Positions 6,608-64,000 of a DNA stretch of 64,000 nt are shown one piece after another. This DNA is from a virus. Taxonomy: Duplodnaviria > Heunggongvirae > Uroviricota > Caudoviricetes. The stretch lies in IMG/VR virus record IMGVR_UViG_3300035682_000012, positions 6,073-70,072 of that record. One strand, given 5' to 3'. The translations under genes and the position numbers were made by a program. The notes under the pieces are model-generated. The model ran no database searches and had not been told where the DNA came from. It worked only from the letters and a program-made list of their open reading frames with translations. The first letter of the stretch is position 1. Every line of letters starts with the position of its first letter.

Positions 6608-7651
6608 TTATATTAAAGTTTTATTTGTAGTATCAATAAACTCATATAAATTATGGAATAGATTTTGATTTTTCCATATTTTATTAAATTCTTTTTTAAA
6701 TAATTCATGTTCCGGATGTTCCGTATCCCATACCTGTTTTAATTTGAATTCACCCTCAGAAAATGTTCCCCAATTAGTTATCTTACCAAAAAACACATTT
6801 ACTTTTTTACCAAAAATAGAATACATTAAATTATAAAATGTTTCCATCTCCATATAGTTACTATCTTGTACAACAAAAGATGTCTTTACACTTATTTTTG
6901 GTAAGGTATTAATGAATTTTAAATTGTTCATTAAGTTTTCCCAATTACCACCTATCCTTGTTTTATTTTCATATGTGTCTTTAGTCCCAGCATCTATACT
7001 AATTTCACAACTTGTTACATATTTGTGCACATTTGGCATACTATCCCACATTTCTTTATTCCACATAGATGCGTTTGTATGTAAATGTATTCTTACTAAT
7101 TGAGGATATTTTTTAGGATTAAAATTTCTTAAATAGTTTCTAAATCCAACTGAAACAAATGGGTCTCCTGAACCTGTAATGTATAAAGTTTTCACGTGTT
7201 TTGAATAATATGTATCAATATCTTCAATCGTTTTTTCAACTCGCTTTATACCTTCACTATTTTCAACAATCAAATCAACTCTACATGATGGACATTTGTA
7301 ATTACAAGTTCTATCGAAATTCATTACCAAATATTCAGGTGTATTATTTTTTATAATTGGACTATTAATGTTTGAATTTGATTTTAAAATAACTGGGCCT
7401 GATGTCACTCCAAAATTTACTAATTTATTTAAATAAGGACAAAGCTCTTTACTACAATATTTAAACGAACCGTCTAAAATAGAATTTCTAATATCTACAA
7501 CCGGTTTACTATTATAAACATCTTTTAGTGGTATTTCACTAAGTTCTACTTTGTTTGATAACCAAGATGGACAACAAACAAAACAAACATTATTATGTAT
7601 TTCTAATGAGGTGAATGGTACGTTACATGTATAATTTTTTAAATCTACCAT
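6608..7651 (-). CDS. radical SAM enzyme
   Basis: 'CNYKCPSC' (CX3CX2C) followed by 'YITGSGDPF' glycine-rich SAM motif; extra N-terminal Cys cluster. Confidence 0.7.
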   Translation of the reverse strand: MVDLKNYTCNVPFTSLEIHNNVCFVCCPSWLSNKVELSEIPLKDVYNSKPVVDIRNSILDGSFKYCSKELCPYLNKLVNFGVTSGPVILKSNSNINSPIIKNNTPEYLVMNFDRTCNYKCPSCRVDLIVENSEGIKRVEKTIEDIDTYYSKHVKTLYITGSGDPFVSVGFRNYLRNFNPKKYPQLVRIHLHTNASMWNKEMWDSMPNVHKYVTSCEISIDAGTKDTYENKTRIGGNWENLMNNLKFINTLPKISVKTSFVVQDSNYMEMETFYNLMYSIFGKKVNVFFGKITNWGTFSEGEFKLKQVWDTEHPEHELFKKEFNKIWKNQNLFHNLYEFIDTTNKTLI

Positions 7652-24654: not shown

Positions 24655-25524
24655 CTATATAAATTTTATTATTGCTAAATCTTTTTGTTTTGCTTCTACC
24701 ATTATGTCCACTATGTTGCCGTATGTTTCAGGAATCCTTTCAATGAAATCACTATGTGCCTGTGGCTTACTACCCATCTTACTTTCAGAATAGTGAACTG
24801 CCGGTGTTATACCTTTCGGCCATGTACTCATAGCTAACTCTAATGCATCTTGCTCACTTAAATTTCCGGTATTGAATGTGTGATGATGATAATCAAATAC
24901 AATAGGTATCTTTATTGCATTGTGAATATACATTAAGTCTTTAACTGAATACATACTCGCCTTATCGTCATTCTCAATTGTTAATCTGCTCTTTACTGAA
25001 TCAGATAGTAGTTTAAAATTATCTATGAACCTATCCATCGCACTTTGCTTATCACCATACACTCCGTTACAATGTATATTGATTTTATTGTAAGGTGTTT
25101 TAGATAATCCTATCGCATCCATCAACCTACCATGCACTTCTAAATCATTTATTGTATTTTGTACTACCGCTTCTTTTGGTGAAACTAATACATTAAAAGG
25201 ACCTGGATGAAATGATAATCTTTGTCCATACTTTGTTGCTTTATCACCACATCTTTTTAGTATGATTGCAATTTCATTCCAATCTTTTAATTGTTCAAAT
25301 TGATATTCAGTAGCCCATGGCATCATATCGGAACTCATACGATACATCTTAATACCATTCTGCTCATTCCATTCTATAATCCGTTCTAAGTCCGCTACAT
25401 TTTGTATAACACAATCCGATACATAATCCAGTCCCTTTTCTAAAAAAGTTCTCTTAATCATTGTTCGGTTTGTAGTGACCTTTTTACCCAAACTCATATT
25501 AATACATGCATATCCTAAATTCAT
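24655..25524 (-). CDS. uvdE: UV DNA damage endonuclease (UvdE/Uve1 family)
   Basis: 'TIENDDK', 'VFDYHHH', 'MVEAKQKDLAI' and the overall TIM-barrel UVDE layout, co-linear with bacterial UvdE. Confidence 0.88.
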   Translation of the reverse strand: MNLGYACINMSLGKKVTTNRTMIKRTFLEKGLDYVSDCVIQNVADLERIIEWNEQNGIKMYRMSSDMMPWATEYQFEQLKDWNEIAIILKRCGDKATKYGQRLSFHPGPFNVLVSPKEAVVQNTINDLEVHGRLMDAIGLSKTPYNKINIHCNGVYGDKQSAMDRFIDNFKLLSDSVKSRLTIENDDKASMYSVKDLMYIHNAIKIPIVFDYHHHTFNTGNLSEQDALELAMSTWPKGITPAVHYSESKMGSKPQAHSDFIERIPETYGNIVDIMVEAKQKDLAIIKFI

Positions 25525-28397: not shown

Positions 28398-29039
28398 TTA
28401 AAAAGGATTTGATGGTGTATGTAATTTTAATTCATCAATTTGTCTTTGTAACTCTTTTATTGTATCTACTATTGAACCATGTGTATATGTTGTATTACCA
28501 TTAGTGTAAACAATATTAGTTCCATTTGTAGTTATACCGGGTGAATGAACACCATGTGTTGGTGCTGATGTTAATTGTCTACTTAACATTTCATCAATTA
28601 TTTCCTCATACCTTACTCTAAATAAAGCAATAGTTCTAATATCAACTAATTCTATTTTGTGTTTTATATTCAAGCCGTTGCCATCCAATAATTTAAGTAT
28701 GTGTTCACCATACGCAGGTGTTATGCCCCCACACCCCAATAATAATTCTAAATGCCATTTTGGTTTTTGTGGTAAGTTTAAATTTAATACATCTGCATAA
28801 TAACATTCACCTGTTGCATTATGTATTGGATTAACTATCGTATAACCTTTGTATGTAAACCCACTAGTCTTATCCCAATTCTTAATTTTCATAGGTTTCT
28901 TTAATTTACTTTTATTTGTTGGTACATCTTTGCCACCCCATACTCCTAATAAACAACTGATATGGTCATAATTAACTAAGTAATCATAATCCGTATTAGA
29001 TGTATCATTGCCACATATACTACATACCCATTGATTCAT
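28398..29039 (-). CDS. hypothetical protein (213 aa), N-terminal CxxC
   Basis: Minus-strand ORF. Confidence 0.5.
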   Translation of the reverse strand: MNQWVCSICGNDTSNTDYDYLVNYDHISCLLGVWGGKDVPTNKSKLKKPMKIKNWDKTSGFTYKGYTIVNPIHNATGECYYADVLNLNLPQKPKWHLELLLGCGGITPAYGEHILKLLDGNGLNIKHKIELVDIRTIALFRVRYEEIIDEMLSRQLTSAPTHGVHSPGITTNGTNIVYTNGNTTYTHGSIVDTIKELQRQIDELKLHTPSNPF

Positions 29040-29250: not shown

Positions 29251-29284
29251 ATACTTAAAGATACGAAAAATTACCCATTTTACC

Positions 29285-40309: not shown

Positions 40310-41521
40310 TTAATTAAATGTTTTAGTTATAGGGTCTTGTTTCCAATGATATATTTTTCCATTTATAGTAATACCATCTAAATAATAAACATTATCTTTC
40401 TGATATAAATTTAATTTGGACATCCATGCTTTTGAATTAGTTTGATATGTTATAATATTGTTTTCTTTAAACGTTTTATAATTATCAGTTGTTTTATACA
40501 CACTTAATTGAAATCCATTATACCAATTAGTACCACTATCGATTGTTCTATTTAATATTATTTCAGTTGTACCATCATTATCGATGTCGGCTGCTACAAT
40601 ATCCAATACCAATGCCCATCCATTTATATTTGGTTCACATATAATTGTATTGTTACTAAATTCATTATTATTATTCCAAAATATAGTAGATTTAGAATAC
40701 CTATCTGAATTTGGGAATCCTTCAAACCCAGTCATTATAATATCCAATTGATTATCTTCATTTACATCTAATATTTCAATTGTTAAATAACCGGATGCTC
40801 CTTTATATTTCCAATCGGTTGCATTAAAACTACCATTGCCACTACCATATAAAACTTTAATGCTATTTCCGGCAGTTACAACGATATCAATATTACCATC
40901 TTTATTTAAGTCACCACTTGCTCCCCCATGCCAAAAGGATTTACCAATATCAGGTAATGTTCCTATTTTATATTTGCCTGTTTTTTTGTCACTTAATAAC
41001 AATGTGTTGTTTTCGCCTGGCCAATAGTTATTACTTTCATATCCATGATTACATAAAAACAAATCCGGTAAACTATCATTATTAAAATCACCAACAATTG
41101 TTTTTCTTGTTGTTTGATTACCGGTGTAGTCACTCGGTAACATACTATTATCACTAATATATGTTTTACCTTTATTTATAAACACATCTGGTTTTGAATT
41201 AAATTCGCCATCCGATGTGTATGGATAAAAAATATCTTCTAATCCATCGTTATTCATATCTACATATACCCAACCATTATTACTATTACCATTGTATTTT
41301 CCAATATTCCTAATACCAAGGTTTGTTCTAAGTGAATCAATATTGATAAAGTTTTTTGTATTTTTTAATTCATATGATGTCTTACCATAATATATAATTT
41401 TTGGTAATTCAGTCGGTGTTAATACAATCGGTGTTACTACAATTGGTGGTATCACACTCGGTATAGTTTTATTACAACTAACCGCTATAACTAATATAAT
41501 TCCTAATACTATATTTTTCAT
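40310..41521 (-). CDS. exported FG-GAP/VCBS-repeat (integrin-alpha-like beta-propeller) lipoprotein
   Basis: Signal peptide plus 'AVSCNKT' lipobox; repeated 'DxNxDGxxD' blades (DMNNDGLEDIF, DFNNDSLPDLF, DLNKDGNIDIV, DVNEDNQLDII, DIDNDGTTEII). Confidence 0.6.
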   Translation of the reverse strand: MKNIVLGIILVIAVSCNKTIPSVIPPIVVTPIVLTPTELPKIIYYGKTSYELKNTKNFINIDSLRTNLGIRNIGKYNGNSNNGWVYVDMNNDGLEDIFYPYTSDGEFNSKPDVFINKGKTYISDNSMLPSDYTGNQTTRKTIVGDFNNDSLPDLFLCNHGYESNNYWPGENNTLLLSDKKTGKYKIGTLPDIGKSFWHGGASGDLNKDGNIDIVVTAGNSIKVLYGSGNGSFNATDWKYKGASGYLTIEILDVNEDNQLDIIMTGFEGFPNSDRYSKSTIFWNNNNEFSNNTIICEPNINGWALVLDIVAADIDNDGTTEIILNRTIDSGTNWYNGFQLSVYKTTDNYKTFKENNIITYQTNSKAWMSKLNLYQKDNVYYLDGITINGKIYHWKQDPITKTFN

Positions 41522-44037: not shown

Positions 44038-45147
44038 TTATTCGTATTCGTTTCTATCAATATTAATTACATATGGAAAACGGGGAATACCATCAGGTGT
44101 TAAATTAAAATACTTAATCGTTGCTTGCTTACCGATTAGTTTCTTTTTACTCTTTAACATTTCAGCCGTTTCATCCCATGTTCCTTTTACATTTGATTTG
44201 AAAGGTTTTCCATCAATCGTTTCAAATACCATATAACCAGCAGTGCCGGTTCTATTACCCTCACCCTCTACAATATCTAAGATAGTATATTCATCATCAA
44301 CAAACGATTTGTGTTTTAATAAATTCTTACTTCGTTTGTTTTCATACTTACCATCTATTCTTAAGATTTGACCTTCATAACCTTGTTCTACATATCCACC
44401 ATATAATTCCTCAACCATATCTGCATTATCAACTTTATATGTTTGTACTATTCTACAATACTTACCTACTTGTGAAAATGTTTCAAATAGTATTCCTAAA
44501 TCATACATTCTTTTTACAAAGTTATTATCTGAACTAGGTAAATCGTATATGTGATACTCTATACTTTTTTCACTTTCAATTAAATCCTCTTTAGTTGGTT
44601 TTGTTTTTTTAACCAAAGATACAATCTTATTGAAATCATTAGCGAACTTATCGGCATATAACTCACCATCTAATATCAAATCAGGATTCATTACAAATAC
44701 ATGCCATAAGCTATACATGATATGTTGCGCTGAAAGAATAGGTTTACCATTTCTGCTAAACATACCATCTTTTGTCACTATACAACGAATACCATCTAAC
44801 TTAGCTTGCGAATAAATTGGATATGTAACTTTATCTTTACAATCCTCCCACTTTGCAGCTAACATTGGTTCAAAGTATTGTGTTTTGTTTATGTGTTTAA
44901 TATTCTCAAAGTAACCACTCTCTAATTTCTTAGTTCGTTTAGCTACCGCCTCTGCCATCGTTTGTTCTTTATCCGTAGTTTCATTTGCTCTACCAATATT
45001 CTTACCATAACAAATTGTCCACTCATTCGTAGTAATAGCACCGCCAACTTGTCCACTATGGGTTCGGTATTTATTACCTACTACTTCAATTGTCCATTCT
45101 TGCGTTGCACCGGTCTTTGTTTTTTTGTAAATTGTTTCTAATTTCAT
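44038..45147 (-). CDS. ATP-dependent DNA ligase
   Basis: Motif I 'AKLDGIR', motif III 'LILDGELY', motif IV 'EGQILR', motif V 'NLLKHK'. Confidence 0.85.
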   Translation of the reverse strand: MKLETIYKKTKTGATQEWTIEVVGNKYRTHSGQVGGAITTNEWTICYGKNIGRANETTDKEQTMAEAVAKRTKKLESGYFENIKHINKTQYFEPMLAAKWEDCKDKVTYPIYSQAKLDGIRCIVTKDGMFSRNGKPILSAQHIMYSLWHVFVMNPDLILDGELYADKFANDFNKIVSLVKKTKPTKEDLIESEKSIEYHIYDLPSSDNNFVKRMYDLGILFETFSQVGKYCRIVQTYKVDNADMVEELYGGYVEQGYEGQILRIDGKYENKRSKNLLKHKSFVDDEYTILDIVEGEGNRTGTAGYMVFETIDGKPFKSNVKGTWDETAEMLKSKKKLIGKQATIKYFNLTPDGIPRFPYVINIDRNEYE

Positions 45148-45530: not shown

Positions 45531-45655
45531 GTCATTCTCTCAACTCAATACATAAAGATACGACTTTATATTGAATTGGCAATGCCCAAAGTGAACTAAT
45601 TTTAAAAGTTTTTATTGAGAATCAACTAGTTACGTCAATATAACCTTATCATATT
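45531..45655. repeat. ~120 bp repeated intergenic element, copy A
   Basis: 'cattctctcaactcaatacataaagatacgactttatattg...caaagtgaactaattttaa...ttacgtcaatat' aligns along its length with copies at 53911..54035 and (more loosely) 19111..19230. Confidence 0.55.
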
Positions 45656-53729: not shown

Positions 53730-53918
53730 TTATTTAGTTTCTTCATTATGTTTAAATACTATTTCAAACTTTCTATCTTCAATAGAAAAACTATCTAAGA
53801 CTGTTTGTAATTGTTTTGCCAGATTATCTAATTTAGATTCATCTTTAAATTCAAATTCAATGTTGAACTGAAATGTTACACTATTCATATTATAAAATTT
53901 TACTATGTGACTACCCAT
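53730..53918 (-). CDS. hypothetical protein (62 aa)
   Basis: Minus-strand ORF 21 nt downstream of the promoter-like motif in repeated element B. Confidence 0.45.
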   Translation of the reverse strand: MGSHIVKFYNMNSVTFQFNIEFEFKDESKLDNLAKQLQTVLDSFSIEDRKFEIVFKHNEETK

Positions 53919-54035
53919 TCTCTCGACTCAATACATAAAGATACGACTTTATATTGGACTTTGAACAGGCCAAAGTAACTATTTTTAGGTTTTTCAAAGA
54001 TTTTTGACTGACTATCAATGAGTTACATATATGAT
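53911..54035. repeat. ~120 bp repeated intergenic element, copy B
   Basis: Same conserved blocks as copy A. Confidence 0.55.
53937..53946 (-). promoter_or_regulatory. promoter-like motif AAAGATACGA within repeated element B
   Basis: 21 nt upstream of the ATG at 53918. Confidence 0.5.
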
Positions 54036-57774: not shown

Positions 57775-58110
57775 TTAAATCCCATCTTTTAATCCTCTCT
57801 TTTTAATAAGTATATCAATAGATGCACTTTCGTTTTGTTTTATAATTGGTTTTAAACTATCATACAACCCATCTGAGAACACTTCATCCGTTCCCTTATC
57901 ACTATTTGCTACTGCCGTAGAAATGTGTGCAAATCGTTTTAATTTGTACGGAGAGAGTGGTACAATATGTTGTTTGAGACTTAGGGCTTTAGCATCCAGG
58001 TACTCGAATAATTCCGAGTCGGTCATTTGTTTTAGTTCCTCGTCTGTCTTATTAAATTCCATACTCAAATATACTAATAAATAATGAATTAAAAAAATAA
58101 AGGGGAACAT
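57775..58110 (-). CDS. hypothetical protein (111 aa)
   Basis: Minus-strand ORF. Confidence 0.5.
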   Translation of the reverse strand: MFPFIFLIHYLLVYLSMEFNKTDEELKQMTDSELFEYLDAKALSLKQHIVPLSPYKLKRFAHISTAVANSDKGTDEVFSDGLYDSLKPIIKQNESASIDILIKKRGLKDGI

Positions 58111-58132
58111 TTCTGCTCCCCGTTTGTATGTT

Positions 58133-59980
58133 TTAAACTACATTTTGTGTAGATATATTCATTAATGGATTTTCCAAATCTAAATTATCAATTGTGTTAG
58201 TACCACGTTTTGATTTAGATTTAATATGTCCTTTATGTTTAGTATTCCCAAATAATTCTGCTTTTCTCTTTGAAGCATTTCCAAATGATGGTAAAAACGA
58301 TGTGTATGAAGGCATAGTAGTTGCATCAGTCCAATTAATGTCACTAAAGTAACCATCCTCTTGCTTATTTTCCATTTTAGAAATAAAAGCACTTTTCAAA
58401 TTTTCATTAACTACATTAACAATTGTATCGTGTTTATCATGCCATCCGGTTACAAAACTATCTCCAATATGTTTGCGAAATGCTTTGTCTATATTATTCT
58501 TATCATATTGTGATTCCTTACATTTTGTTTCAATTGATTTGAAGCTTTTCAAAAAGTTAGAATCATCCATTTCTTCTTTAGAGGTAAAATATCTTCGACT
58601 AGATTGGTTTACCTTATCAAGTGTTTGTTTACCATCTTCTGTTTCCCAATAATATGTATTGATTGGATGCATTGGATTGTTATAATACTCACATATTGCA
58701 ATAAAATCAGTAATAACGTTTTCTAAATTACTTAATTCTATCTTTGGTTTCCATATTCTACCAGACGAATCCATATATTGAAATACTTTAGTTATATAGT
58801 TATATAAAAATATAGATAAAATAAACATTGATGGTTTTGATATTATCGCAGTTAACGCTTCATTATTATTTTCGTTACTTCCAATTTTGTTAAAAACTTT
58901 AGCAACTTTTAATAAATCTGATTTCATACTCTTTAAATCCGATTCGCTTATTTCACAATCTTTGCTTAAGATAGATGATAACATTTGTTGTTCATTCTTA
59001 AATCCAAATCTTTGTAATTGCTTTATATCATAATAACATGTATCTGCTATAACTGATATGAGATATTCAAATCCACCATCTTTCTTTTGAAACTTACCTG
59101 TTCCAAATTTTACTGGATTTGCTTTACCATATAACATCTCCAATATCCCACCTACTGAACTATCAGTTGTTTCTGATGCAATATTATCTCTAACAAAAAT
59201 TGTAAATGGATTCTTTGTTAACTTAAACTTATGTAGAAATTCTGACCAACTAGTGGATGAATTACTATACCATATAAATTTGGCTATATCTTCAAATGAA
59301 TCTGCTTCAGTAATTTCAATTATATTGATAGGGCATTCACTTAAATATTTTAAATATATATTCGTTGTTTCTTCAACTGAAAGTCCTTTGAATTCTTTAA
59401 TTTGTTTTGAAGGATTTGTTGAGGTACATTTTGTTTCTAAATCTTTTAAAGATTCAAATTTTATTTCCTTATCATTAACTATAAATGGTGCAAATTGAAT
59501 TTCAGCATTTGTTTTTGGTAATTTACCAGTCAAATCACTTATATATTGTGTCATTCTATGTTGCCCATTAACTGAAAAATATTTATCTTTAAATCTCTTT
59601 TCAGAAAAATAGTTAATATCATCTTTCAAATAAGCAATAGATGTATCATATATTGCCTTTTGCGATAATTCTGCATTTAATTTTGAAATTTCTTTAGTAG
59701 CTAATTCACTTTTCAATACTTTGATAATTGTTTTCGCTGAAATATAATATACCGGCGATGATGTACCAAATCCATTGGTAGCCGCCGTAACCATATTTTT
59801 ACGAACTGCTTTCTTTAGTTCTTTAATATATCTATTGATTCTAGTTGAATTAATAAATTTATCTTTATTTTCAAATATATATCTTAAATCACTACCCAAT
59901 GCTTCAACTGCAATTCTTAATGATTTTTTGATTTCTATTTTCTTTTTTCCATTTGAAATGGTAAAAATTGTTTTTAACAT
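58133..59980 (-). CDS. large hypothetical protein (615 aa) with a possible DGQHR/ParB-like 'NGQHR' motif
   Basis: 'YFSVNGQHRMTQY' at about residue 130; long clean ORF; promoter-like AAATATACGAAATATAA 28 nt upstream. Confidence 0.5.
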   Translation of the reverse strand: MLKTIFTISNGKKKIEIKKSLRIAVEALGSDLRYIFENKDKFINSTRINRYIKELKKAVRKNMVTAATNGFGTSSPVYYISAKTIIKVLKSELATKEISKLNAELSQKAIYDTSIAYLKDDINYFSEKRFKDKYFSVNGQHRMTQYISDLTGKLPKTNAEIQFAPFIVNDKEIKFESLKDLETKCTSTNPSKQIKEFKGLSVEETTNIYLKYLSECPINIIEITEADSFEDIAKFIWYSNSSTSWSEFLHKFKLTKNPFTIFVRDNIASETTDSSVGGILEMLYGKANPVKFGTGKFQKKDGGFEYLISVIADTCYYDIKQLQRFGFKNEQQMLSSILSKDCEISESDLKSMKSDLLKVAKVFNKIGSNENNNEALTAIISKPSMFILSIFLYNYITKVFQYMDSSGRIWKPKIELSNLENVITDFIAICEYYNNPMHPINTYYWETEDGKQTLDKVNQSSRRYFTSKEEMDDSNFLKSFKSIETKCKESQYDKNNIDKAFRKHIGDSFVTGWHDKHDTIVNVVNENLKSAFISKMENKQEDGYFSDINWTDATTMPSYTSFLPSFGNASKRKAELFGNTKHKGHIKSKSKRGTNTIDNLDLENPLMNISTQNVV

Positions 59981-60034
59981 ACTTTTAAATTTTAGTGTTT
60001 ATTAAATATACGAAATATAATTGGATTTACCAAA

Positions 60035-60637
60035 TTATATATTTTGTTCTTTGTATAATTTCATATACTTGTCACTCATTTTTTTGTAGTTCATTCTGAA
60101 ATTAGGGGGCATTGCTTCATAGATAGCTTTATTACTATATGGTGCGTTGCCTGGTCTACTCCATCTCTTTGAGTATCTCATATAATTGTAGAACTGAACA
60201 TATGCGTTTGCTTTTTTAATATAATCGTTAAGGTCAATTGGTAGTTTCCATTTCTTAATTAGCTTTACCGAGCGTTTCTCATTATCCAATTCTAAATCTC
60301 TACTCCATTCTATTGCTTTCTTAACACTACGAATTTTTTTACCACCCAACCAATCGTCTAAATGGGTCACTCCGGTCGAACCGGTTTTCCATATGTTAGT
60401 GCTCTTATCTTGCCATTGTGTTAAGTGTGCATATTCATGTGTTAATATACCTAACCAATCTTTACTTTTACCCGCTACTACTAATCTCATAGTTTCCTCA
60501 CAAAAGTAACCACTACATCTTATATTACCACTCAATACTAAATATTTTACAGGTCGTATTTGGCATCTAATCCCCACTTCCTTACAATGTCCTTTCACAT
60601 GATTAATGAAAGCTCTTACGTTTTTTGTTAATGCCAT
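60035..60637 (-). CDS. HExxH-motif protein (putative zinc metalloprotease, 200 aa)
   Basis: 'GILTHEYAHLTQW'. Confidence 0.45.
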   Translation of the reverse strand: MALTKNVRAFINHVKGHCKEVGIRCQIRPVKYLVLSGNIRCSGYFCEETMRLVVAGKSKDWLGILTHEYAHLTQWQDKSTNIWKTGSTGVTHLDDWLGGKKIRSVKKAIEWSRDLELDNEKRSVKLIKKWKLPIDLNDYIKKANAYVQFYNYMRYSKRWSRPGNAPYSNKAIYEAMPPNFRMNYKKMSDKYMKLYKEQNI

Positions 60638-60667
60638 TTTGTTTTATTATTAATTTAAAAAATAAAG

Positions 60668-60686
60668 GAGGGTACAAATTGTACCC
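60668..60686 (-). terminator. hairpin (GGGTAC-loop-GTACCC) followed by a T-run on the minus strand
   Basis: Near-perfect palindrome GGGTACAAATTGTACCC, then UUUAUUUUUU in minus-strand RNA; lies between the AAA gene and the HExxH gene. Confidence 0.45.
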
Positions 60687-60746
60687 CCCTTAGTTATTTA
60701 GGTATAGTCGTTATGAGTATGTATAAAACTATACCCTCATAACATA

Positions 60747-61979
60747 TTACCAAACAATAGTATCGTCATTCGCATCTTCCTCTTTCACTTCGTTGAATAA
60801 CTTTTCACCTTCATTCTCATCTACTACGAATTTTTGTATAAGTTGCTTAATGTAAGTACGCTCACTATCCATACCACCATCTTGTGAATAGAACGGGAAG
60901 ATTGCTACCTCAGCTGCTTCTAACAAACTGAAACCATCATACAACAAACCTGCCATCTCTACTGAAATACGAGTTGATACAGCAGTTGTCAATTTACCCG
61001 CCTCACCTTTGATTTGGTCTCTAGTGTGTGCCGCAATCTCTGCTACTGATTTCAAATTGTAATCATTCGTATCAGGATATAACATCTTTAACAATTCATA
61101 TTCCTGCTCAGCATTCAATACATCTACCTCAATTGTCACGAATCTATCTAACAATGCTCTATCCATTACACGCGTTGCAGTATATTCAGAACCGATGTTT
61201 GCAGTTGCAATAAAGGTAACACCTTCTGCCACCTTAACAATTGGTGAATTTTCTTGCTCATCTAATCGTAAGTATCTTTGTGTTTGGTCTAACACTGTCA
61301 TTAGGATATTAGCGGCTTCTGGATGAGCTCTACTTAATTCATCTAATAACACAACTGCGTAAGGTGTCTTAATAGCTTTAACGAATGCACTCTCACTAAA
61401 ATAAGTACCACTTGCTTTGTTAAAGTGTGTGTTACCAATTAATGCCGCCCTCGGGTCTTGCGTCGCACCTAAGTTAAAGTAATGAAACGGTCTTTTCAAT
61501 GCCGCAACTAATGCTTTAGCTGCCATTGTCTTACCACTACCCGCAGGTCCTGTCATCATAATATTTCGCGCTCGAACCGCTGAACGTAATAAATATTTCC
61601 ACTTCAACTCGTTCATAATTAAGTTAGCAGGTTTTAACGCCATACCCTCTTTATGAATGAAATCGATAACATCTTTATGCTCCGTTGGATTTTCTACGAT
61701 AGTTTCAGCGATATCCGTATTCATCGGCTTAACCAACATATCCGTATATTCTTGCATTTCTACCATACGATAGCTTTTAGCTCCGTTTTTGTTTACATGC
61801 GCACGAATTGCTTTATTTTGTGCTGATGCTTTTTTTCGTAAAGAACTACCTACTATTGTAGAATCTGAACTACTTAATACATCACCCGCAGTATTAACTA
61901 AGTTAAAACGGGATTTAAGATTTTCTACTTTGTACACTTCATTTGTGTAACCATACTCTTGTGTTGCTTTTTTACTCAT
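60747..61979 (-). CDS. MoxR/CobS-like AAA+ ATPase
   Basis: Walker A 'MMTGPAGSGKT', Walker B 'VVLLDELSRA', sensor/arginine-finger region; 410 aa. Confidence 0.8.
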   Translation of the reverse strand: MSKKATQEYGYTNEVYKVENLKSRFNLVNTAGDVLSSSDSTIVGSSLRKKASAQNKAIRAHVNKNGAKSYRMVEMQEYTDMLVKPMNTDIAETIVENPTEHKDVIDFIHKEGMALKPANLIMNELKWKYLLRSAVRARNIMMTGPAGSGKTMAAKALVAALKRPFHYFNLGATQDPRAALIGNTHFNKASGTYFSESAFVKAIKTPYAVVLLDELSRAHPEAANILMTVLDQTQRYLRLDEQENSPIVKVAEGVTFIATANIGSEYTATRVMDRALLDRFVTIEVDVLNAEQEYELLKMLYPDTNDYNLKSVAEIAAHTRDQIKGEAGKLTTAVSTRISVEMAGLLYDGFSLLEAAEVAIFPFYSQDGGMDSERTYIKQLIQKFVVDENEGEKLFNEVKEEDANDDTIVW

Positions 61980-62026
61980 AACTGAATTTTTAATGTTTAT
62001 TGTTTAATTATTGTTTGATATATCAT

Positions 62027-62036
62027 AAAGATACGA
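62027..62036 (-). promoter_or_regulatory. promoter-like motif AAAGATACGA upstream of the AAA+ ATPase gene
   Basis: 48 nt upstream of the ATG at 61979. Confidence 0.45.
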
Positions 62037-62154
62037 AATTCTGCCCACACTACCAAAACTATTTATAACCTATTGAATATCAACACATTATACACATCCA
62101 TTTAGGGTAATGTATAACACATTGATAATCAATTAGTTAAGTTTTAGTGTGTTT

Positions 62155-64000
62155 TTACGCTTTTTTCATAAAAAGCTCATTCATTGTTTTAATGATAGGA
62201 ACGATTTGTTTAACATCAATAAAACGGCTGTCACTTCCGTACATTGTTTTAAAGTTGTCAGATGAACTACTATATGAACTGCCACCAACAAAGTAACTCA
62301 TAACTTGTATACCCATATCTTTGATTTGTCCTACCATTTTCTTAGTGTGTAACAAAGCGTTTCTACCACTATAAGAACATTGTTGATTTGAGAATGTTGG
62401 CTCACCATCACATATGTTTAAGAAATAAGAATCCATATCTTTGTTGCTCTCTACAAAATGTTTAAGTATCGCTTGATAACATAAACCTTCAGGTGTTGTA
62501 CCATTGGCGTGTAATGCAGGAAACAATCTCTTAACTTTCTCAAACTTATCAAATCTACTATCATACGCAATACATATGTAAGGTTTATCACCCCACGTAC
62601 CTCTGATAGAAACTTGTACATTTAAGTTACTTACCATTGATGCTGCTTTACAAATAGCAATTGTTACGGCTAATGTATCATCCCACACACTACCACTCAT
62701 TGAACCACTACCATCAATAGTAACGTGCAACATTACTTTCTTAAACCTATCTACTTCTTTGGTACTGAATACATTTACATAATCATATCCTAATGCCGCT
62801 ACCATTCTCTTATCAATTCTACCATTCTTTTGGCGTGGATTGATTGTTTCTCTTTCCTCACTACGAACTGCAATACGCTTACCTAAAATAGTACCCATTA
62901 CGATACCTCTTTGTAAAGTATCAGCATTCCAGTTATTCCATTTATCATTCCAAAAACTAGCGAAAGGGAACGAACTATCTTGCATCAATCCTTCGGTCAT
63001 TTTCTTAGATACGATACATTGAACCGGTTGAATATATCCACCATTCTCTAATTTAGTATCACCTACGGATTGCATTTCAGTTCCACTCTCAGCCATTTGG
63101 TCTAAGGTTTCATCCTCTTTCTTAGTTAATCCTTTCTTTTTGATATTGTTATTAACGAAGTCCTTTTGCTTTTGGATTTGTTTATCCAATTGTTTCTTAG
63201 CAGTATCACTCATTAAATCTTTACCATTACCAGTTTGTGAAGCACCACTCGTAGAGTCACCTTTCTCACCCATCACAGGTGCATCACCACCACTACCACC
63301 CATTTCATCGTTTTGTTTATCACCTGCCTCTGCTCCAGTTTCATTACCTGCTTCGTTTACATCTGCAGGGTCACCATTACCCTTACCTTTACCATCTTTA
63401 CTTAAATCAACTAAGATATGTTGTAAGATAGTGTTGGTAATCTTTTCTGCTACCTCTAATGAATCGGTTGTATTTTTTAATCTACTAATATTCTTAAGGT
63501 CTAATGTTTCGTAGATTTCTTTCAAACCTTTCAATTTGTTAAGGTCAGTATTTTGATTTGTGATATTGATAATACGGAACATATACGATTGTAATGTTTC
63601 ATCCGTATATTCATCACTTATCAATCCTTTGTCAATAGTCTTATCATAGAAATACTCATCATACAATGCTCTATAATAGTCTCTATAACCTGGACAAGTA
63701 TTGTAGATATATTGGTCAATCCTTCTATCCTCTACAAAGTTTACCAATGATTTAACTACATCAAATAATTGTTCTTTGTTTCGATAATGTTGTGTACCAT
63801 CAAAAGAAGGGTCATTTACATCTAAACCCGCTGCTTTTGCAAAGTTATTAAACATTTCGGTTGGTGCAGAATAAGCAGGCATTAATTCAAAGTCCGTAAG
63901 AACAATGTGTGATGCTTCGTGCAATGCCAAACCTACCGCGATATCAAACTTTTCAGGTTTAACCTCAGCTGATAATACTACCGATTTACCATCAGTATAA
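62155..64000 (-). CDS. VWA-domain protein (CobT-like), 5' end beyond the window
   Basis: MIDAS 'VTIDGSGSMSGS'; low-complexity acidic/Gly linker; the reading frame stays open to position 64000 ('...LALHEASHIVL' contains HExxH). Confidence 0.75.
   Translation of the reverse strand, partial: YTDGKSVVLSAEVKPEKFDIAVGLALHEASHIVLTDFELMPAYSAPTEMFNNFAKAAGLDVNDPSFDGTQHYRNKEQLFDVVKSLVNFVEDRRIDQYIYNTCPGYRDYYRALYDEYFYDKTIDKGLISDEYTDETLQSYMFRIINITNQNTDLNKLKGLKEIYETLDLKNISRLKNTTDSLEVAEKITNTILQHILVDLSKDGKGKGNGDPADVNEAGNETGAEAGDKQNDEMGGSGGDAPVMGEKGDSTSGASQTGNGKDLMSDTAKKQLDKQIQKQKDFVNNNIKKKGLTKKEDETLDQMAESGTEMQSVGDTKLENGGYIQPVQCIVSKKMTEGLMQDSSFPFASFWNDKWNNWNADTLQRGIVMGTILGKRIAVRSEERETINPRQKNGRIDKRMVAALGYDYVNVFSTKEVDRFKKVMLHVTIDGSGSMSGSVWDDTLAVTIAICKAASMVSNLNVQVSIRGTWGDKPYICIAYDSRFDKFEKVKRLFPALHANGTTPEGLCYQAILKHFVESNKDMDSYFLNICDGEPTFSNQQCSYSGRNALLHTKKMVGQIKDMGIQVMSYFVGGSSYSSSSDNFKTMYGSDSRFIDVKQIVPIIKTMNELFMKKA

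What the first reader, a model, noticed from the sequence alone, without database searches (positions are those of the whole stretch)
58133..64000. Terminal module: DGQHR-like 615 aa protein, HExxH protein, MoxR/CobS-like AAA+ ATPase, VWA (CobT-like) protein carrying an HExxH motif
The AAA+ ATPase (Walker A GPAGSGKT, Walker B LLDELSRA) and the downstream-encoded VWA/MIDAS protein (DGSGSMSG) form the classic MoxR-VWA or CobS-CobT pair. Here the VWA partner additionally has 'LHEASH' near its truncated N-terminus. The module is flanked by a 200 aa HExxH protein ('HEYAH') and a 615 aa protein with 'VNGQHR', which recalls the DGQHR motif of DndB/ParB-like DNA-modification-associated proteins. In phages CobS/CobT-like pairs are seen but functionally unexplained. 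The combination with a ParB/DndB-like protein and metalloprotease motifs could mark a chaperone/activation or DNA-modification-related system.
Basis: partly seen in the sequence, partly recalled or inferred. Interest (0 to 1): 0.65.

Follow-up and report, generated by a model that had tools for sequence, protein, structure and literature searches.

The report
Phage cobST pair plus mobile nuclease
The four neighbouring phage genes are not one system: two form the well-known, widely conserved phage "CobS/CobT-like" ATPase–adaptor pair, and the other two are swappable accessory genes, one of which looks like a very divergent GmrSD-type (ParB-fold plus HNH) DNA nuclease.

Summary
All four ORFs and every quoted motif are present as described. 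The VWA gene is cut by the window end; its full 714-aa form was recovered from the source contig.

The VWA protein and the MoxR-class AAA+ ATPase are a genuine pair, next to each other in 16 of 17 related phage loci. The "extra" HExxH is not extra. The protein is collinear with CobT: a zincin-like N-domain, a disordered acidic linker, a conserved pre-VWA segment and a MIDAS VWA. CobT's own N-domain has an M48C-peptidase-like fold, and phage cobT is often misannotated as a peptidase.

The 200-aa HExxH protein is a DUF6782-like accessory gene found only in one subclade, and a terminator separates it from the ATPase.

The 615-aa protein matches no DndB, ParB or DGQHR HMM. Its model's top hits by two methods are the DUF262–DUF1524 proteins BrxU and SspE. 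It belongs to a tiny family (about 12 clusters in 1.8 billion proteins). It sits in a hypervariable slot where relatives carry other ParB-fold proteins, and its homologues lie in at least five unrelated contexts.

The pair is ordinary; the nuclease is a modestly novel variant.

The parts
62155..64000 (-). CobT-like adaptor gene. Residues 101-714 of 714 are in the window; the first 100 residues lie beyond the window end. Domains: zincin-like N-domain, disordered linker, pre-VWA conserved segment, MIDAS VWA domain.
63907..63924 (-). LHEASH (H127-E128-x-x-H131 of the full protein), the zincin motif in the helix that follows a small beta-sheet. A candidate third metal ligand lies in VEDRRID at 63715-63735.
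   Evidence: Invariant in 26 homologues. Model: helix 64-86, strands 92-109, helix 115-134. This is the same order as the CobT_N M48C-like fold described in 10.64898/2026.07.21.739949.
63136..63411 (-). Low-complexity acidic/Gly-rich linker (aa 297-388), predicted disordered.
   Evidence: pLDDT 23-39. Length-variable and unconserved in alignment A4. Corresponds to the ~90-residue disordered linker of CobT.
62779..62865 (-). Strongly conserved (22 of 29 positions invariant) segment RSEERETINPRQKNGRIDKRMVAALGYDY (aa 479-507), just before VWA strand beta1. Inferred to be the 'shaft/finger' that enters the AAA+ pore.
   Evidence: Invariant columns R479 to Y507 with pLDDT below 50 for 480-518 in isolation. 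The position matches the CobT shaft (Q373-R413, before MIDAS D422) and the NorD finger. This is inference.
62692..62715 (-). MIDAS motif DGSGSMSG. Further MIDAS residues lie in GTTPEG (62485-62502) and CDGEP (62398-62412).
62026..62057 (-). Bipartite promoter-like motif TTTGGTA-N15-CGTATCTTTA, 48 nt upstream of the AAA+ ATG.
   Evidence: There are seven such bipartite copies in the window, all on the coding strand. The CGTATNTTT core occurs 11 times on the minus strand and 3 times on the plus strand.
60747..61979 (-). MoxR-class AAA+ ATPase (phage 'CobS-like', 410 aa). Walker A at 61527-61550, Walker B at 61326-61349.
   Evidence: AAA_5 9e-19 and CbbQ_C 5e-5. phrog_249 4.5e-30. Best solved relative is NorQ, 9e-10. 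It follows the VWA gene in 16 of 17 related loci.
60665..60691 (-). Intrinsic-terminator-like hairpin (12-bp stem, 6 GC pairs, then TTATTTTTT) between the AAA+ stop codon and the 200-aa gene.
60035..60637 (-). 200-aa DUF6782-like putative zincin (HEYAH at 60425-60439; LELDNEKR at 60272-60295). An accessory gene.
   Evidence: DUF6782 6e-4, below cut-off; 6 of 8 family members hit it. Invariant H67 E68 H71 Q74 E116 D118 E120 R122. Present only where VWA identity is 65% or more. Homologues in jumbo phages are not next to AAA+/VWA.
60003..60034 (-). Second copy of the bipartite promoter-like motif (TTTGGTA-N15-CGTATATTTA), 24 nt upstream of the 615-aa gene's ATG.
58133..59980 (-). 615-aa GmrSD-like protein: ParB/DUF262-fold N-domain, roughly 290-aa helical linker, C-terminal HNH-like motif.
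59555..59572 (-). V-NGQHR (aa 137-142), counterpart of DGQQR/DGQHR. RINRY (59828-59842) and FIWYSNSSTSW (59246-59278) are further invariant blocks.
   Evidence: Invariant. The strand-GQHR-helix arrangement appears in the model. hhalign to a DUF262+HNH phage family aligns exactly this motif, E=0.0025.
58142..58237 (-). C-terminal HNH-like motif H-K-G-H585...KSKRGTN...N599-L-D-L-E...N608 (family consensus HRGHxxAKSKGGSNKxENLELENxxIN).
   Evidence: G584, H585, N599, E603 and N608 are invariant. Pfam HNH is the only hit to the 37-39-aa fragments (E 0.012 and 0.037, below cut-off). hhalign E=0.0072 to the HNH of the L017 family. The region did not fold in the AF2 model (pLDDT about 30).
58102..58121 (-). 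Terminator-like hairpin immediately after the 615-aa gene, overlapping the start of the conserved 111-aa gene.

Best explanation
The region holds three juxtaposed units, not one system.

(1) A conserved core pair of this clade of large uncultured phages. It consists of a MoxR-class AAA+ ATPase (410 aa) and a CobT-type adaptor (714 aa). By analogy with CobS-CobT and NorQ-NorD, the ATPase forms a hexameric ring. The adaptor's strongly conserved pre-VWA segment inserts into the pore. Its zincin-like N-domain and MIDAS face hold a client protein. ATP hydrolysis then twists or pulls the adaptor to remodel the client, for example to insert a metal or cofactor. The client is unknown.

(2) An accessory 200-aa DUF6782-like HExxH protein, probably a small zinc hydrolase, with no obligatory link to the pair.

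(3) A mobile stand-alone 615-aa nuclease of GmrSD/BrxU/SspE architecture. A ParB/Srx-fold N-domain (NGQHR) binds and hydrolyses NTP. It gates a C-terminal HNH-type DNA nuclease through a long helical linker. It sits in a hypervariable slot where sister phages carry other ParB-fold proteins. Its most likely role is a phage-borne conflict nuclease that cuts DNA differing from the phage's own, such as competitor-phage or host DNA.

Shown: domain content, conservation, synteny and transcription signals. Inferred: pore insertion, client remodelling, NTP gating, nuclease activity and target.
For: Pair:
- AAA_5 9e-19, CbbQ_C 5e-5, phrog_249 4.5e-30 and NorQ 9e-10.
- The AAA+ gene lies directly downstream of the VWA gene in 16 of 17 distinct related loci (VWA identity 48-96%). 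It is also adjacent in the 484-kb phage LR756508.
- The VWA protein has more than 4500 homologues, at least 55% identical among the best 120.
- Its architecture is collinear with CobT.

Split of the region:
- A terminator lies at 60665-60691, and promoter-like motifs precede the AAA+ and 615-aa genes.
- In the 48-51%-identity clade the gene right after AAA+ is the homologue of window 57775-58110. Everything between is therefore inserted material.

615-aa protein:
- Foldseek rank 1 is SspE, aligned over the full length.
- It has an invariant NGQHR plus invariant H585, N599 and N608.
- Sub-threshold Pfam hits are GmrSD_N (E=0.044, the best-scoring of four weak hits on the P0014 N-fragment; none on the window protein's own fragment) and HNH (0.012).
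- Two collinear domain-wise hhalign matches score E 0.0025 and 0.0072.
- The same slot in L017 holds a DUF262-HNH protein: HNH 5.9e-9 is above the Pfam cut-off; GmrSD_N 1.6e-5 (25.6 bits) is below its 33.2-bit cut-off, though PF03235 is precomputed for about a third of that family (13 of 41). In L014 and L012 the slot holds a ParB-like protein, PHROG 7e-11.
Against: - No HMM library (Pfam, NCBIfam, PADLOC, PHROGs) places the 615-aa protein in DUF262, DUF1524, DndB or ParB_N at significance.
- Full-length profile-profile probability is only 4.6%.
- The HNH-like tail is unfolded in the model, and a Gly replaces the acidic residue that precedes the catalytic His in GmrD.
- The VWA N-domain model is low confidence (pLDDT 50-69). 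Its zincin fold therefore rests on motif, secondary-structure order and analogy.
- No client for the ATPase pair was identified.
- No biochemical activity is shown for any of the four proteins.
Confidence: 0.68

Rival explanations
1. One reading: the four genes form one chaperone/activation or DNA-modification-related system. In it the MoxR-VWA machine and the metalloprotease motifs act on or with the ParB/DndB-like protein.
For: The genes are adjacent on the same strand in this phage and in 8 near-identical contigs. One relative (L018) has VWA, AAA+, the 200-aa gene and a 615-family gene within 8 kb.
Against: - The 615-family gene is absent from 16 of 17 other VWA/AAA+ loci. The 200-aa gene is absent from the 48-58%-identity clade.
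- 615-family homologues sit beside GNAT/AsnB/HD, Pribosyltran/SnoaL_2, HAD_SAK_2 and other genes, with no AAA+/VWA nearby.
- Jumbo-phage homologues of the 200-aa gene are not near an AAA+/VWA pair.
- A terminator and separate promoter-like motifs divide the region.
Confidence: 0.06
2. The pair is a true cobaltochelatase CobS/CobT auxiliary metabolic gene pair. It would dock onto host CobN and boost cobalamin synthesis during infection, as proposed for cobST in tailed viruses.
For: PHROG annotations (phrog_249 'porphyrin biosynthesis', phrog_5298 'cobalamin biosynthesis protein'). The architecture is collinear with CobT. The literature proposal is in PMC8651126, and cobS/cobT are called classic AMGs in PMC7029224.
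Against: - TIGR01650 CobS scores 18 bits against a cut-off of 558; GvpN, NorQ and CbbQ score better.
- Pfam CobT_C scores only E=0.15, and there is no hit to the CobT N-domain model.
- No CobN-sized ORF exists in the 64-kb window; the largest ORF is 615 aa.
- The likely host is Bacteroidota, judged from the promoter type and from SusC/TonB-like genes on sister contigs. From my own knowledge, that group contains many B12 auxotrophs.
- The HExxH..E triad is invariant here, which a pure docking domain would not need.
Confidence: 0.2
3. The 615-aa gene is a selfish free-standing homing endonuclease (HNH), not a conflict weapon. The ParB-like domain would serve DNA recognition, and the gene would spread by cutting alleles that lack it.
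For: Patchy presence in a fixed intergenic slot between conserved genes, and occurrence in at least five different contexts in related phages. HNH-like motif. Own promoter and terminator.
Against: - At 615 aa, with a conserved NTPase-type motif and a long helical linker, it matches the GmrSD architecture rather than the short free-standing phage HNH homing endonucleases (the length comparison is my own knowledge).
- Family members are 36-44% identical along their full length with many invariant residues, which indicates sustained selection on the whole protein.
- The same slot holds ParB-fold proteins without any recognisable HNH (L014, L012, L020).
Confidence: 0.2
4. The 615-aa protein is a DndB/DGQHR-type regulator or accessory of a DNA-modification pathway, with no nuclease role.
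For: The NGQHR motif resembles DGQHR. DGQHR and DGQQR domains are related (PMC4619093).
Against: No hit to the DGQHR/DndB models in Pfam, NCBIfam or PADLOC. No Pfam family of a dnd/ssp gene was recorded among the called genes within 10 kb either side. The protein is about 250 aa longer than DndB (own knowledge) and carries a conserved HNH-like C-terminus. The top structural hits are the nuclease-bearing BrxU and SspE.
Confidence: 0.05
5. The VWA adaptor's N-domain is a catalytically active zinc protease. The pair would then be an AAA+-driven protease that cleaves a host or phage target, possibly together with the 200-aa zincin.
For: H127, E128, H131 and E190/D191 are invariant across 26 homologues. 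The 200-aa neighbour has a complete HExxH...E-x-D-x-E signature.
Against: Bona fide CobT_N has the same peptidase-like fold but acts as a docking domain. The N-domain model is low confidence. hhalign finds no relation between the 200-aa protein and the VWA N-domain beyond the 12-residue HExxH helix.
Confidence: 0.15

Closest known systems
CobS-CobT of the aerobic cobaltochelatase, and the phage 'cobST' gene pair
   Same: A MoxR-class AAA+ ATPase sits next to an adaptor built as peptidase(M48C)-like N-domain, about 90-aa disordered linker, pore-inserting segment and MIDAS VWA. The pair is conserved as a two-gene cluster in many tailed phages (PMC8651126; 10.64898/2026.07.21.739949).
   Different: The curated CobS and CobT models are not met (TIGR01650 18 of 558 bits; CobT_C E=0.15). 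Gene order here is adaptor then ATPase. The ATPase has a roughly 130-aa N-terminal extension. The HExxH..E triad is invariant. No CobN gene is in the window.
NorQ-NorD (MoxR AAA+ / VWA metal-insertion chaperone; PDB 9qh4, 9qh8)
   Different: No sequence-level similarity of the adaptor to NorD was detected; its N-terminal domain here carries a zincin-type HExxH motif. The client here is unknown and there is no nitric oxide reductase context.
GmrSD-family type IV restriction enzymes (BrxU 7p9k; Eco94GmrSD) and SspE (6jiv): DUF262 + helical linker + DUF1524/HNH
   Different: There is no significant HMM match. The motif is NGQHR instead of DGQQR. Two long helices (aa 82-125) are inserted in the N-domain. 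Gly replaces Asp/Glu before the catalytic His. The gene is encoded by a lytic-looking large phage rather than a bacterial defence island. It belongs to a family of only about 12 sequence clusters.
DndB / DGQHR-domain proteins (TIGR03187, PF14072)
   Same: A pentapeptide of the same type (xGQHR) in a ParB-related fold.
   Different: No HMM match, no dnd genes nearby, about 250 aa longer, and an additional HNH-like C-terminus.
DUF6782 putative metallopeptidases (for the 200-aa protein)
   Same: The HExxH helix region aligns (aa 34-77 to profile positions 60-106). 6 of 8 family members give sub-threshold hits.
   Different: The scores are below the gathering threshold (19.5 vs 27 bits) and only about a fifth of the profile is matched. 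The family is otherwise seen in jumbo phages as 'hypothetical protein'.

Membership tests
GmrSD / DUF262-DUF1524 nucleases | Significant match to the DUF262 (PF03235 GmrSD_N) HMM | tested here: not met
   No hit for the 615-aa protein at E<=1. The best sub-threshold result is the distant member P0014, 14.3 bits against a cut-off of 33.2. PADLOC gave none.
GmrSD / DUF262-DUF1524 nucleases | ParB/Srx-fold N-terminal domain | tested here: met
GmrSD / DUF262-DUF1524 nucleases | Invariant DGQQR (gamma-phosphate/hydrolysis) motif after a beta-strand | tested here: met
   A variant, NGQHR, is invariant in 11 of 11 members and follows strand 134-138. hhalign aligns it to the DGQQR of a DUF262-HNH family. 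G, the first Q and R are kept; D becomes N and the second Q becomes H.
GmrSD / DUF262-DUF1524 nucleases | Alpha-helical linker of 200-400 residues between the domains | tested here: met
   The model is almost entirely helical from about aa 247 to 537.
GmrSD / DUF262-DUF1524 nucleases | C-terminal HNH (DUF1524) with the (E/D)-H ... N-L-x-L-L-x3-N motifs | tested here: inconclusive
   H585, N599-L-x-L-E and N608 are invariant. Pfam HNH scores 16.2 bits against a cut-off of 21.4. hhalign E=0.0072. The acidic residue before His is replaced by Gly, and the region is unfolded in the model.
GmrSD / DUF262-DUF1524 nucleases | NTP-dependent cleavage of modified DNA | not testable with these tools
   Requires biochemistry.
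DndB / DGQHR domain | Match to TIGR03187 / PF14072 / the PADLOC DndB models | tested here: not met
   no hit at E<=1.
DndB / DGQHR domain | Genomic association with dnd/ssp phosphorothioation genes | tested here: not met
   None among the called genes within 10 kb either side.
CobS (cobaltochelatase ATPase subunit) | Equivalog model TIGR01650 at or above cut-off | tested here: not met
   18 bits against 558.55. GvpN, NorQ and CbbQ score higher.
CobS (cobaltochelatase ATPase subunit) | Works with a CobN subunit | tested here: inconclusive
   No ORF longer than 615 aa exists in the 64-kb window. The rest of the contig and the host were not examined.
CobT (cobaltochelatase adaptor) | Pfam CobT / CobT_C match | tested here: not met
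   CobT_C E=0.15 (12 bits against 21) on the truncated protein and no hit on the full-length one. phrog_5298 scores only 3e-5.
CobT (cobaltochelatase adaptor) | Architecture: M48C-like N-domain, about 90-aa disordered linker, shaft, MIDAS VWA | tested here: met
   compared with the description in 10.64898/2026.07.21.739949. The N-domain fold is low confidence.
MoxR AAA+ / VWA partner systems | AAA_5-type MoxR ATPase with a CbbQ_C-type lid | tested here: met
   AAA_5 9.3e-19 (68 bits, cut-off 22); CbbQ_C 23.9 bits (cut-off 20.6).
MoxR AAA+ / VWA partner systems | Conserved adjacency to a VWA protein with an intact MIDAS (DxSxS...T...D) | tested here: met
   16 of 17 related loci. D529, S531, S533, T601/T602 and D631 are invariant.
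DUF6782 metallopeptidase (200-aa protein) | HMM match at or above the gathering score | tested here: not met
   19.5 bits against 27. 6 of 8 relatives are sub-threshold, best E 1.8e-5.

The most novel reading that the evidence does not exclude
In this widespread clade of large uncultured phages, the position just downstream of the cobST-like pair is a diversity hot spot. It exchanges unrelated ParB-fold NTPase-nuclease genes: the 615-aa family, a DUF262-HNH family, ParB_N proteins with a different N-terminal module, and other orphans. The 615-aa family would be a previously unrecognised, phage-specific branch of GmrSD-like modification-dependent nucleases used for phage-versus-phage (or phage-versus-host-DNA) warfare.
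Probability: 0.3. Interest if true: 0.6.

Novelty: new variant of a known kind. Interest (0 to 1): 0.38.

Why it matters
The AAA+/VWA pair adds little. It is one more example of the long-known but functionally unresolved phage 'cobST' pair. The recent CobST and NorQD structures now explain its odd 'peptidase' motif as part of the adaptor's docking domain. The invariant HExxH..E triad and the likely B12-auxotrophic host do sharpen the question of what the pair really remodels in phages.

The more useful result concerns the 615-aa orphan. It appears to be a GmrSD-type nuclease so divergent that every HMM library misses it. It sits in a slot where sister phages carry other ParB-fold proteins. If confirmed, type IV-like nucleases would be carried and rapidly exchanged by lytic phages themselves, and current defence-gene catalogues would under-count them.

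Tried and rejected
- DNA and protein searches of 50,697 phage records with the region and the 615-aa protein gave only a 7% DNA hit and no protein hit.
- Pfam, PHROGs, NCBIfam and PADLOC on the 615-aa protein gave nothing meaningful. The phrog_20804 'thioredoxin' hit (14 residues) and the alcohol dehydrogenase hit were dismissed as noise.
- PDB sequence searches with the 615 family, VWA family and 200-aa family profiles found nothing.
- The profile search of 1.84 billion representatives found only the family itself, with no bridge to DUF262.
- Full-length hhalign against a DUF262-HNH phage family gave only 4.6% probability.
- I tested whether the 200-aa zincin is a duplicate of the VWA N-domain. 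hhalign aligns only 12 residues around HExxH, so this was rejected.
- I tested whether the 219-aa HEICH protein downstream of AAA+ in L013 is a 200-aa homologue. At 22% identity with the motif out of register, it was not accepted.
- A T-arm-like hairpin upstream of the VWA gene is not a tRNA (ARAGORN found none; Rfam matched only a 17-nt T-loop fragment).
- The sigma-70 promoter scan was no better than shuffles.
- The afdb50 fold library was unavailable.
- The PHROG and Pfam survey of the 20 largest other ORFs was mostly empty.

Full report
**Observation.** All genes in the 64-kb window lie on the minus strand and G+C is about 29%. The four ORFs are at the stated coordinates and every quoted motif is present. 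Reading the VWA frame to base 63999 shows no stop, so the gene is truncated by the window end. An exact-protein look-up found the source contig (JGI 3300042888 Ga0453674_0000106, 100 kb) and seven near-identical contigs from other samples. The full VWA protein is 714 aa (L001:7681-9825), and its first 100 residues lie outside the window.

**The AAA+/VWA pair: identity.**
- The 410-aa protein is a MoxR-class AAA+ ATPase. It scores AAA_5 9e-19, CbbQ_C 5e-5 and phage 'CobS' phrog_249 4.5e-30, and its best solved relative is NorQ at 9e-10.
- It does not meet the curated CobS equivalog: TIGR01650 gives 18 bits against a cut-off of 558.
- The 714-aa protein has more than 4500 homologues, at least 55% identical among the best 120.

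**The AAA+/VWA pair: adaptor architecture.** An alignment of 26 VWA homologues and an AF2 model show five regions:
1. An N-domain (about aa 64-296) built as helix, small beta-sheet, then a helix carrying the invariant H127-E-A-S-H131, followed by the invariant E190-D-R-R-I-D195.
2. A length-variable, acidic/Gly-rich disordered linker (aa 297-388).
3. A conserved helical/strand extension.
4. A strongly conserved segment (aa 479-507; 22 of 29 positions invariant), within a stretch (480-518) that is low-confidence in isolation.
5. A VWA domain with an intact MIDAS.

**Co-occurrence.** I fetched 17 distinct related loci carrying a VWA homologue (48-96% identity), plus further loci that duplicate the window's own phage, and searched all fetched loci with the window proteins.
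- The AAA+ gene lies immediately downstream of the VWA gene in 16 of the 17 loci. In the remaining one it is 2.4 kb away.
- In the 484-kb phage LR756508 the two genes are adjacent in the opposite order. In Microcystis phage Mel-JY01 they are 13 kb apart.
- The 200-aa gene is present only where VWA identity is 65% or more.
- The 615-aa family is present in only one other locus (L018, 30% identity).
- In the most distant clade, the gene directly after AAA+ is the homologue of window 57775-58110. Everything between AAA+ and that gene is therefore inserted, variable material.

**The variable slot.** Directly upstream of that conserved ~100-aa gene, different phages carry different content:
- the 615/628-aa family (the window and L018);
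- a 466-aa protein with Pfam HNH (5.9e-9) plus GmrSD_N (1.6e-5, below the Pfam cut-off) (L017);
- 429/437-aa ParB-like proteins (PHROG 7e-11; L012 and L014);
- a 514-aa distant relative of the latter (L016);
- a 427-aa orphan with a ParB-like G-x-x-R-R motif, recognised by eye only (L020);
- nothing (L019 and L029).

**Transcription signals.** A strong terminator-like hairpin (60665-60691) separates the AAA+ gene from the 200-aa gene, and another follows the 615-aa gene. A bipartite motif, TTTGGTA-N15-CGTATCTTTA, occurs seven times in the window, always on the coding strand. Two of these copies lie 48 nt before the AAA+ ATG and 24 nt before the 615-aa ATG.

**The 200-aa protein.** Its family, which includes homologues in Xanthomonas and Stenotrophomonas jumbo phages and in a 642-kb uncultured phage, keeps H-E-x-x-H-x-x-Q and E-x-D-x-E-x-R invariant. 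Six of eight members give sub-threshold DUF6782 ('putative metallopeptidase') hits. In the two jumbo phages whose neighbourhood was inspected (XacN1 and RAS14) the gene is not near any AAA+/VWA pair. hhalign finds no relation to the VWA N-domain beyond the HExxH helix. It is best read as an independent small zincin-like accessory protein.

**The 615-aa protein: sequence evidence.**
- It has no significant hit in Pfam, NCBIfam, PADLOC, PHROGs, PDB sequences or 50,697 phage genomes.
- The family is tiny: 11 clusters among 5.8 billion sequences and 12 representatives among 1.84 billion.
- The alignment shows an invariant N138-G-Q-H-R142, further invariant blocks (RINRY and IW.SN.ST.W), and a C-terminal block with consensus H-R-G-H585-x2-A-K-S-K-G-G-S-N-K-x-E-N599-L-E-L-E-N-x3-N608.
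- Pfam HNH is the only hit to the isolated C-terminal fragments, at E 0.012 and 0.037.
- Pfam GmrSD_N is the top hit to the N-fragment of the most distant member, at E 0.044.
- Domain-wise hhalign against a 25-member phage DUF262-HNH family aligns the two expected motifs in collinear order, with E 0.0025 and 0.0072. The full-length probability is only 4.6%.

**The 615-aa protein: structural evidence.** An AF2 model (pLDDT 75; the last 58 residues are unfolded) places NGQHR at a strand-to-helix junction, followed by about 290 residues of helices.
- Foldseek's only hit below E=1 is SspE, aligned over the full length (E 1.4e-2, probability 0.54).

**The 615-aa protein: comparison with the family definition.** The defining description of GmrSD is a ParB/Srx-fold DUF262 with DGQQR (related to DGQHR), a 200-400-residue helical linker, and a DUF1524 HNH with (E/D)H...LGNLxLLxxxN (PMC4619093). 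BrxU is only 13% identical to GmrSD (PMC8565348). Together the evidence supports a very divergent GmrSD-like architecture.

Three differences remain: D becomes N in the pentapeptide, a two-helix insertion lies in the N-domain, and Gly replaces the acidic residue before the catalytic His. I therefore describe it as GmrSD-like and do not file it as a demonstrated member.

**Mobility of the 615-aa family.** Homologues lie next to GNAT/AsnB/HD/RNR genes (L009), a homologue of window 28398-29039 (L010), Pribosyltran/SnoaL_2 (P0006), HAD_SAK_2 (L038) and other genes (L036). None has an AAA+/VWA gene among the neighbours visible on these mostly 2-9-kb contigs. The gene is therefore a stand-alone, mobile accessory gene.

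**Mechanism.**
- For the pair, the steps are inferred by analogy with CobST and NorQD. A hexameric ATPase ring engages the adaptor's residues 479-518 in its pore. The N-domain and MIDAS face hold a client. ATP hydrolysis remodels the client. The client is unknown.
- A true cobaltochelatase role is possible but weakened by four observations: the curated CobS and CobT models are not met, no CobN-sized ORF is in the window, the host is probably Bacteroidota, and the zinc-ligand triad is invariant.
- For the 615-aa protein I infer NTP binding and hydrolysis at the NGQHR site, which gates an HNH-type DNA nuclease as in BrxU.
- Given its mobility and the swap slot, its most likely role is in genome conflict, cutting competitor-phage or host DNA. 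A selfish homing-endonuclease role is the main alternative.

**Verdict.** The pair is an ordinary member of a known, functionally unresolved phage gene pair. The four-gene 'module' does not exist as a unit. The 615-aa protein is a modestly novel, highly divergent variant of the GmrSD-type nucleases.

Noticed in passing
window minus strand, first base of the CGTAT core at 62035, 60012, 32284, 29265, 25724, 3562, 1423 (the TTTGGTA box is about 15 nt upstream of each): A bipartite motif, TT(T/G)GGTA-N15-CGTAT(C/A)TTT(A/G), occurs seven times, always on the coding strand. In five of the seven copies it lies 16-48 nt upstream of a start codon; the copies at 29265 and 25724 fall inside ORFs as called, roughly 200 nt from the next start. 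The CGTATNTTT core is found 11 times on the minus strand and 3 times on the plus strand. It resembles the Bacteroidota -33 TTTG / -7 TAnnTTTG promoter type (own knowledge) and may mark one temporal class of phage promoters.
   Followed up: partly
window 45532-45562 and 53915-53945 (minus strand): A 31-nt identical sequence, CAATATAAAGTCGTATCTTTATGTATTGAGT, occurs twice, 51 nt and 261 nt upstream of ORF starts. It is a variant of the promoter-like motif without the TTTGGTA box, and may be a second regulatory class.
   Followed up: no
slot between the 200-aa gene (or Band7 cassette) and the conserved ~100-aa 'ELFEYLD' gene: window 58133-59980; L014:12855-14168; L012:14926-16215; L016:6765-8309; L017:4869-6269; L018:16258-18144; L020:13721-15004; empty in L019 and L029: At least five non-homologous large genes alternate at the same position in sister phages. 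Four or five of them carry a ParB-fold type motif (NGQHR, DGQQR, EGHHR, G-M-T-R-R). This looks like a gene-swap hot spot for ParB-fold proteins.
   Followed up: partly
L012:1-1469 and L014:1-2525: Sister phage contigs (165 kb and 85 kb) carry a large SusC/TonB-dependent-receptor-like gene (CarboxypepD_reg, Plug, TonB_dep_Rec beta-barrel) on the same strand, just upstream of the conserved Endonuclease_NS gene. This is unusual cargo for a phage and hints at a Bacteroidota host. It is absent at that position in the window's phage.
   Followed up: no
L001:7615-7645 (just beyond the window end, about 40 nt upstream of the VWA start codon): A hairpin, GGTAGGGGTTCGATTCCCCTAC, has a perfect tRNA T-loop consensus. 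ARAGORN finds no tRNA and Rfam matches only 17 nt to the tmRNA T-arm (E 0.034). It could be a tRNA remnant, a tRNA-like element or simply a terminator.
   Followed up: partly
L001:6552-6968 (outside the window, about 700 nt upstream of the VWA gene); also L012, L014, L018-L021, L029, L030 and (42% identity) L032: A 138-aa cREC_REC protein ('cyclic-phosphate processing receiver domain', 7.9e-22) is conserved upstream of the VWA gene in most relatives. It comes together with a CTP_transf_like, Cupin_2, 4Fe-4S ferredoxin, DUF4494 and Endonuclease_NS gene block. A functional link to the AAA+/VWA pair was not examined.
   Followed up: no
window 60700-60746 (minus strand), directly after the AAA+ stop codon: A second inverted repeat, TTATGAG-GGTATAGTTTTATACATA-CTCATAA, precedes the terminator hairpin. 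Its function is unknown.
   Followed up: no
L012:12050-13656, L016:5007-6616, L018:14182-16173, L019:10680-13059: A cassette of three or four small membrane-like ORFs plus a Band_7/SPFH lipoprotein (phrog_200, 1.9e-50) is inserted after the 200-aa gene in several sister phages. It is absent from the window.
   Followed up: no
window 24655-25524, 6608-7651, 40310-41521, 44038-45147: Among otherwise orphan ORFs the window encodes a UvdE UV-damage endonuclease (3e-64), a radical SAM protein, an FG-GAP repeat protein and an ATP-dependent DNA ligase. Fourteen of the 20 largest other ORFs have no PHROG or Pfam match.
   Followed up: no
L014:11679-12239, L017:3587-4156, L020:12405-13055: In some sister phages a 186-216-aa DUF1281_C (Api92-like ferredoxin-like domain) gene is inserted between the AAA+ gene and the 200-aa gene. 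This further shows that the junction after AAA+ accepts insertions.
   Followed up: no
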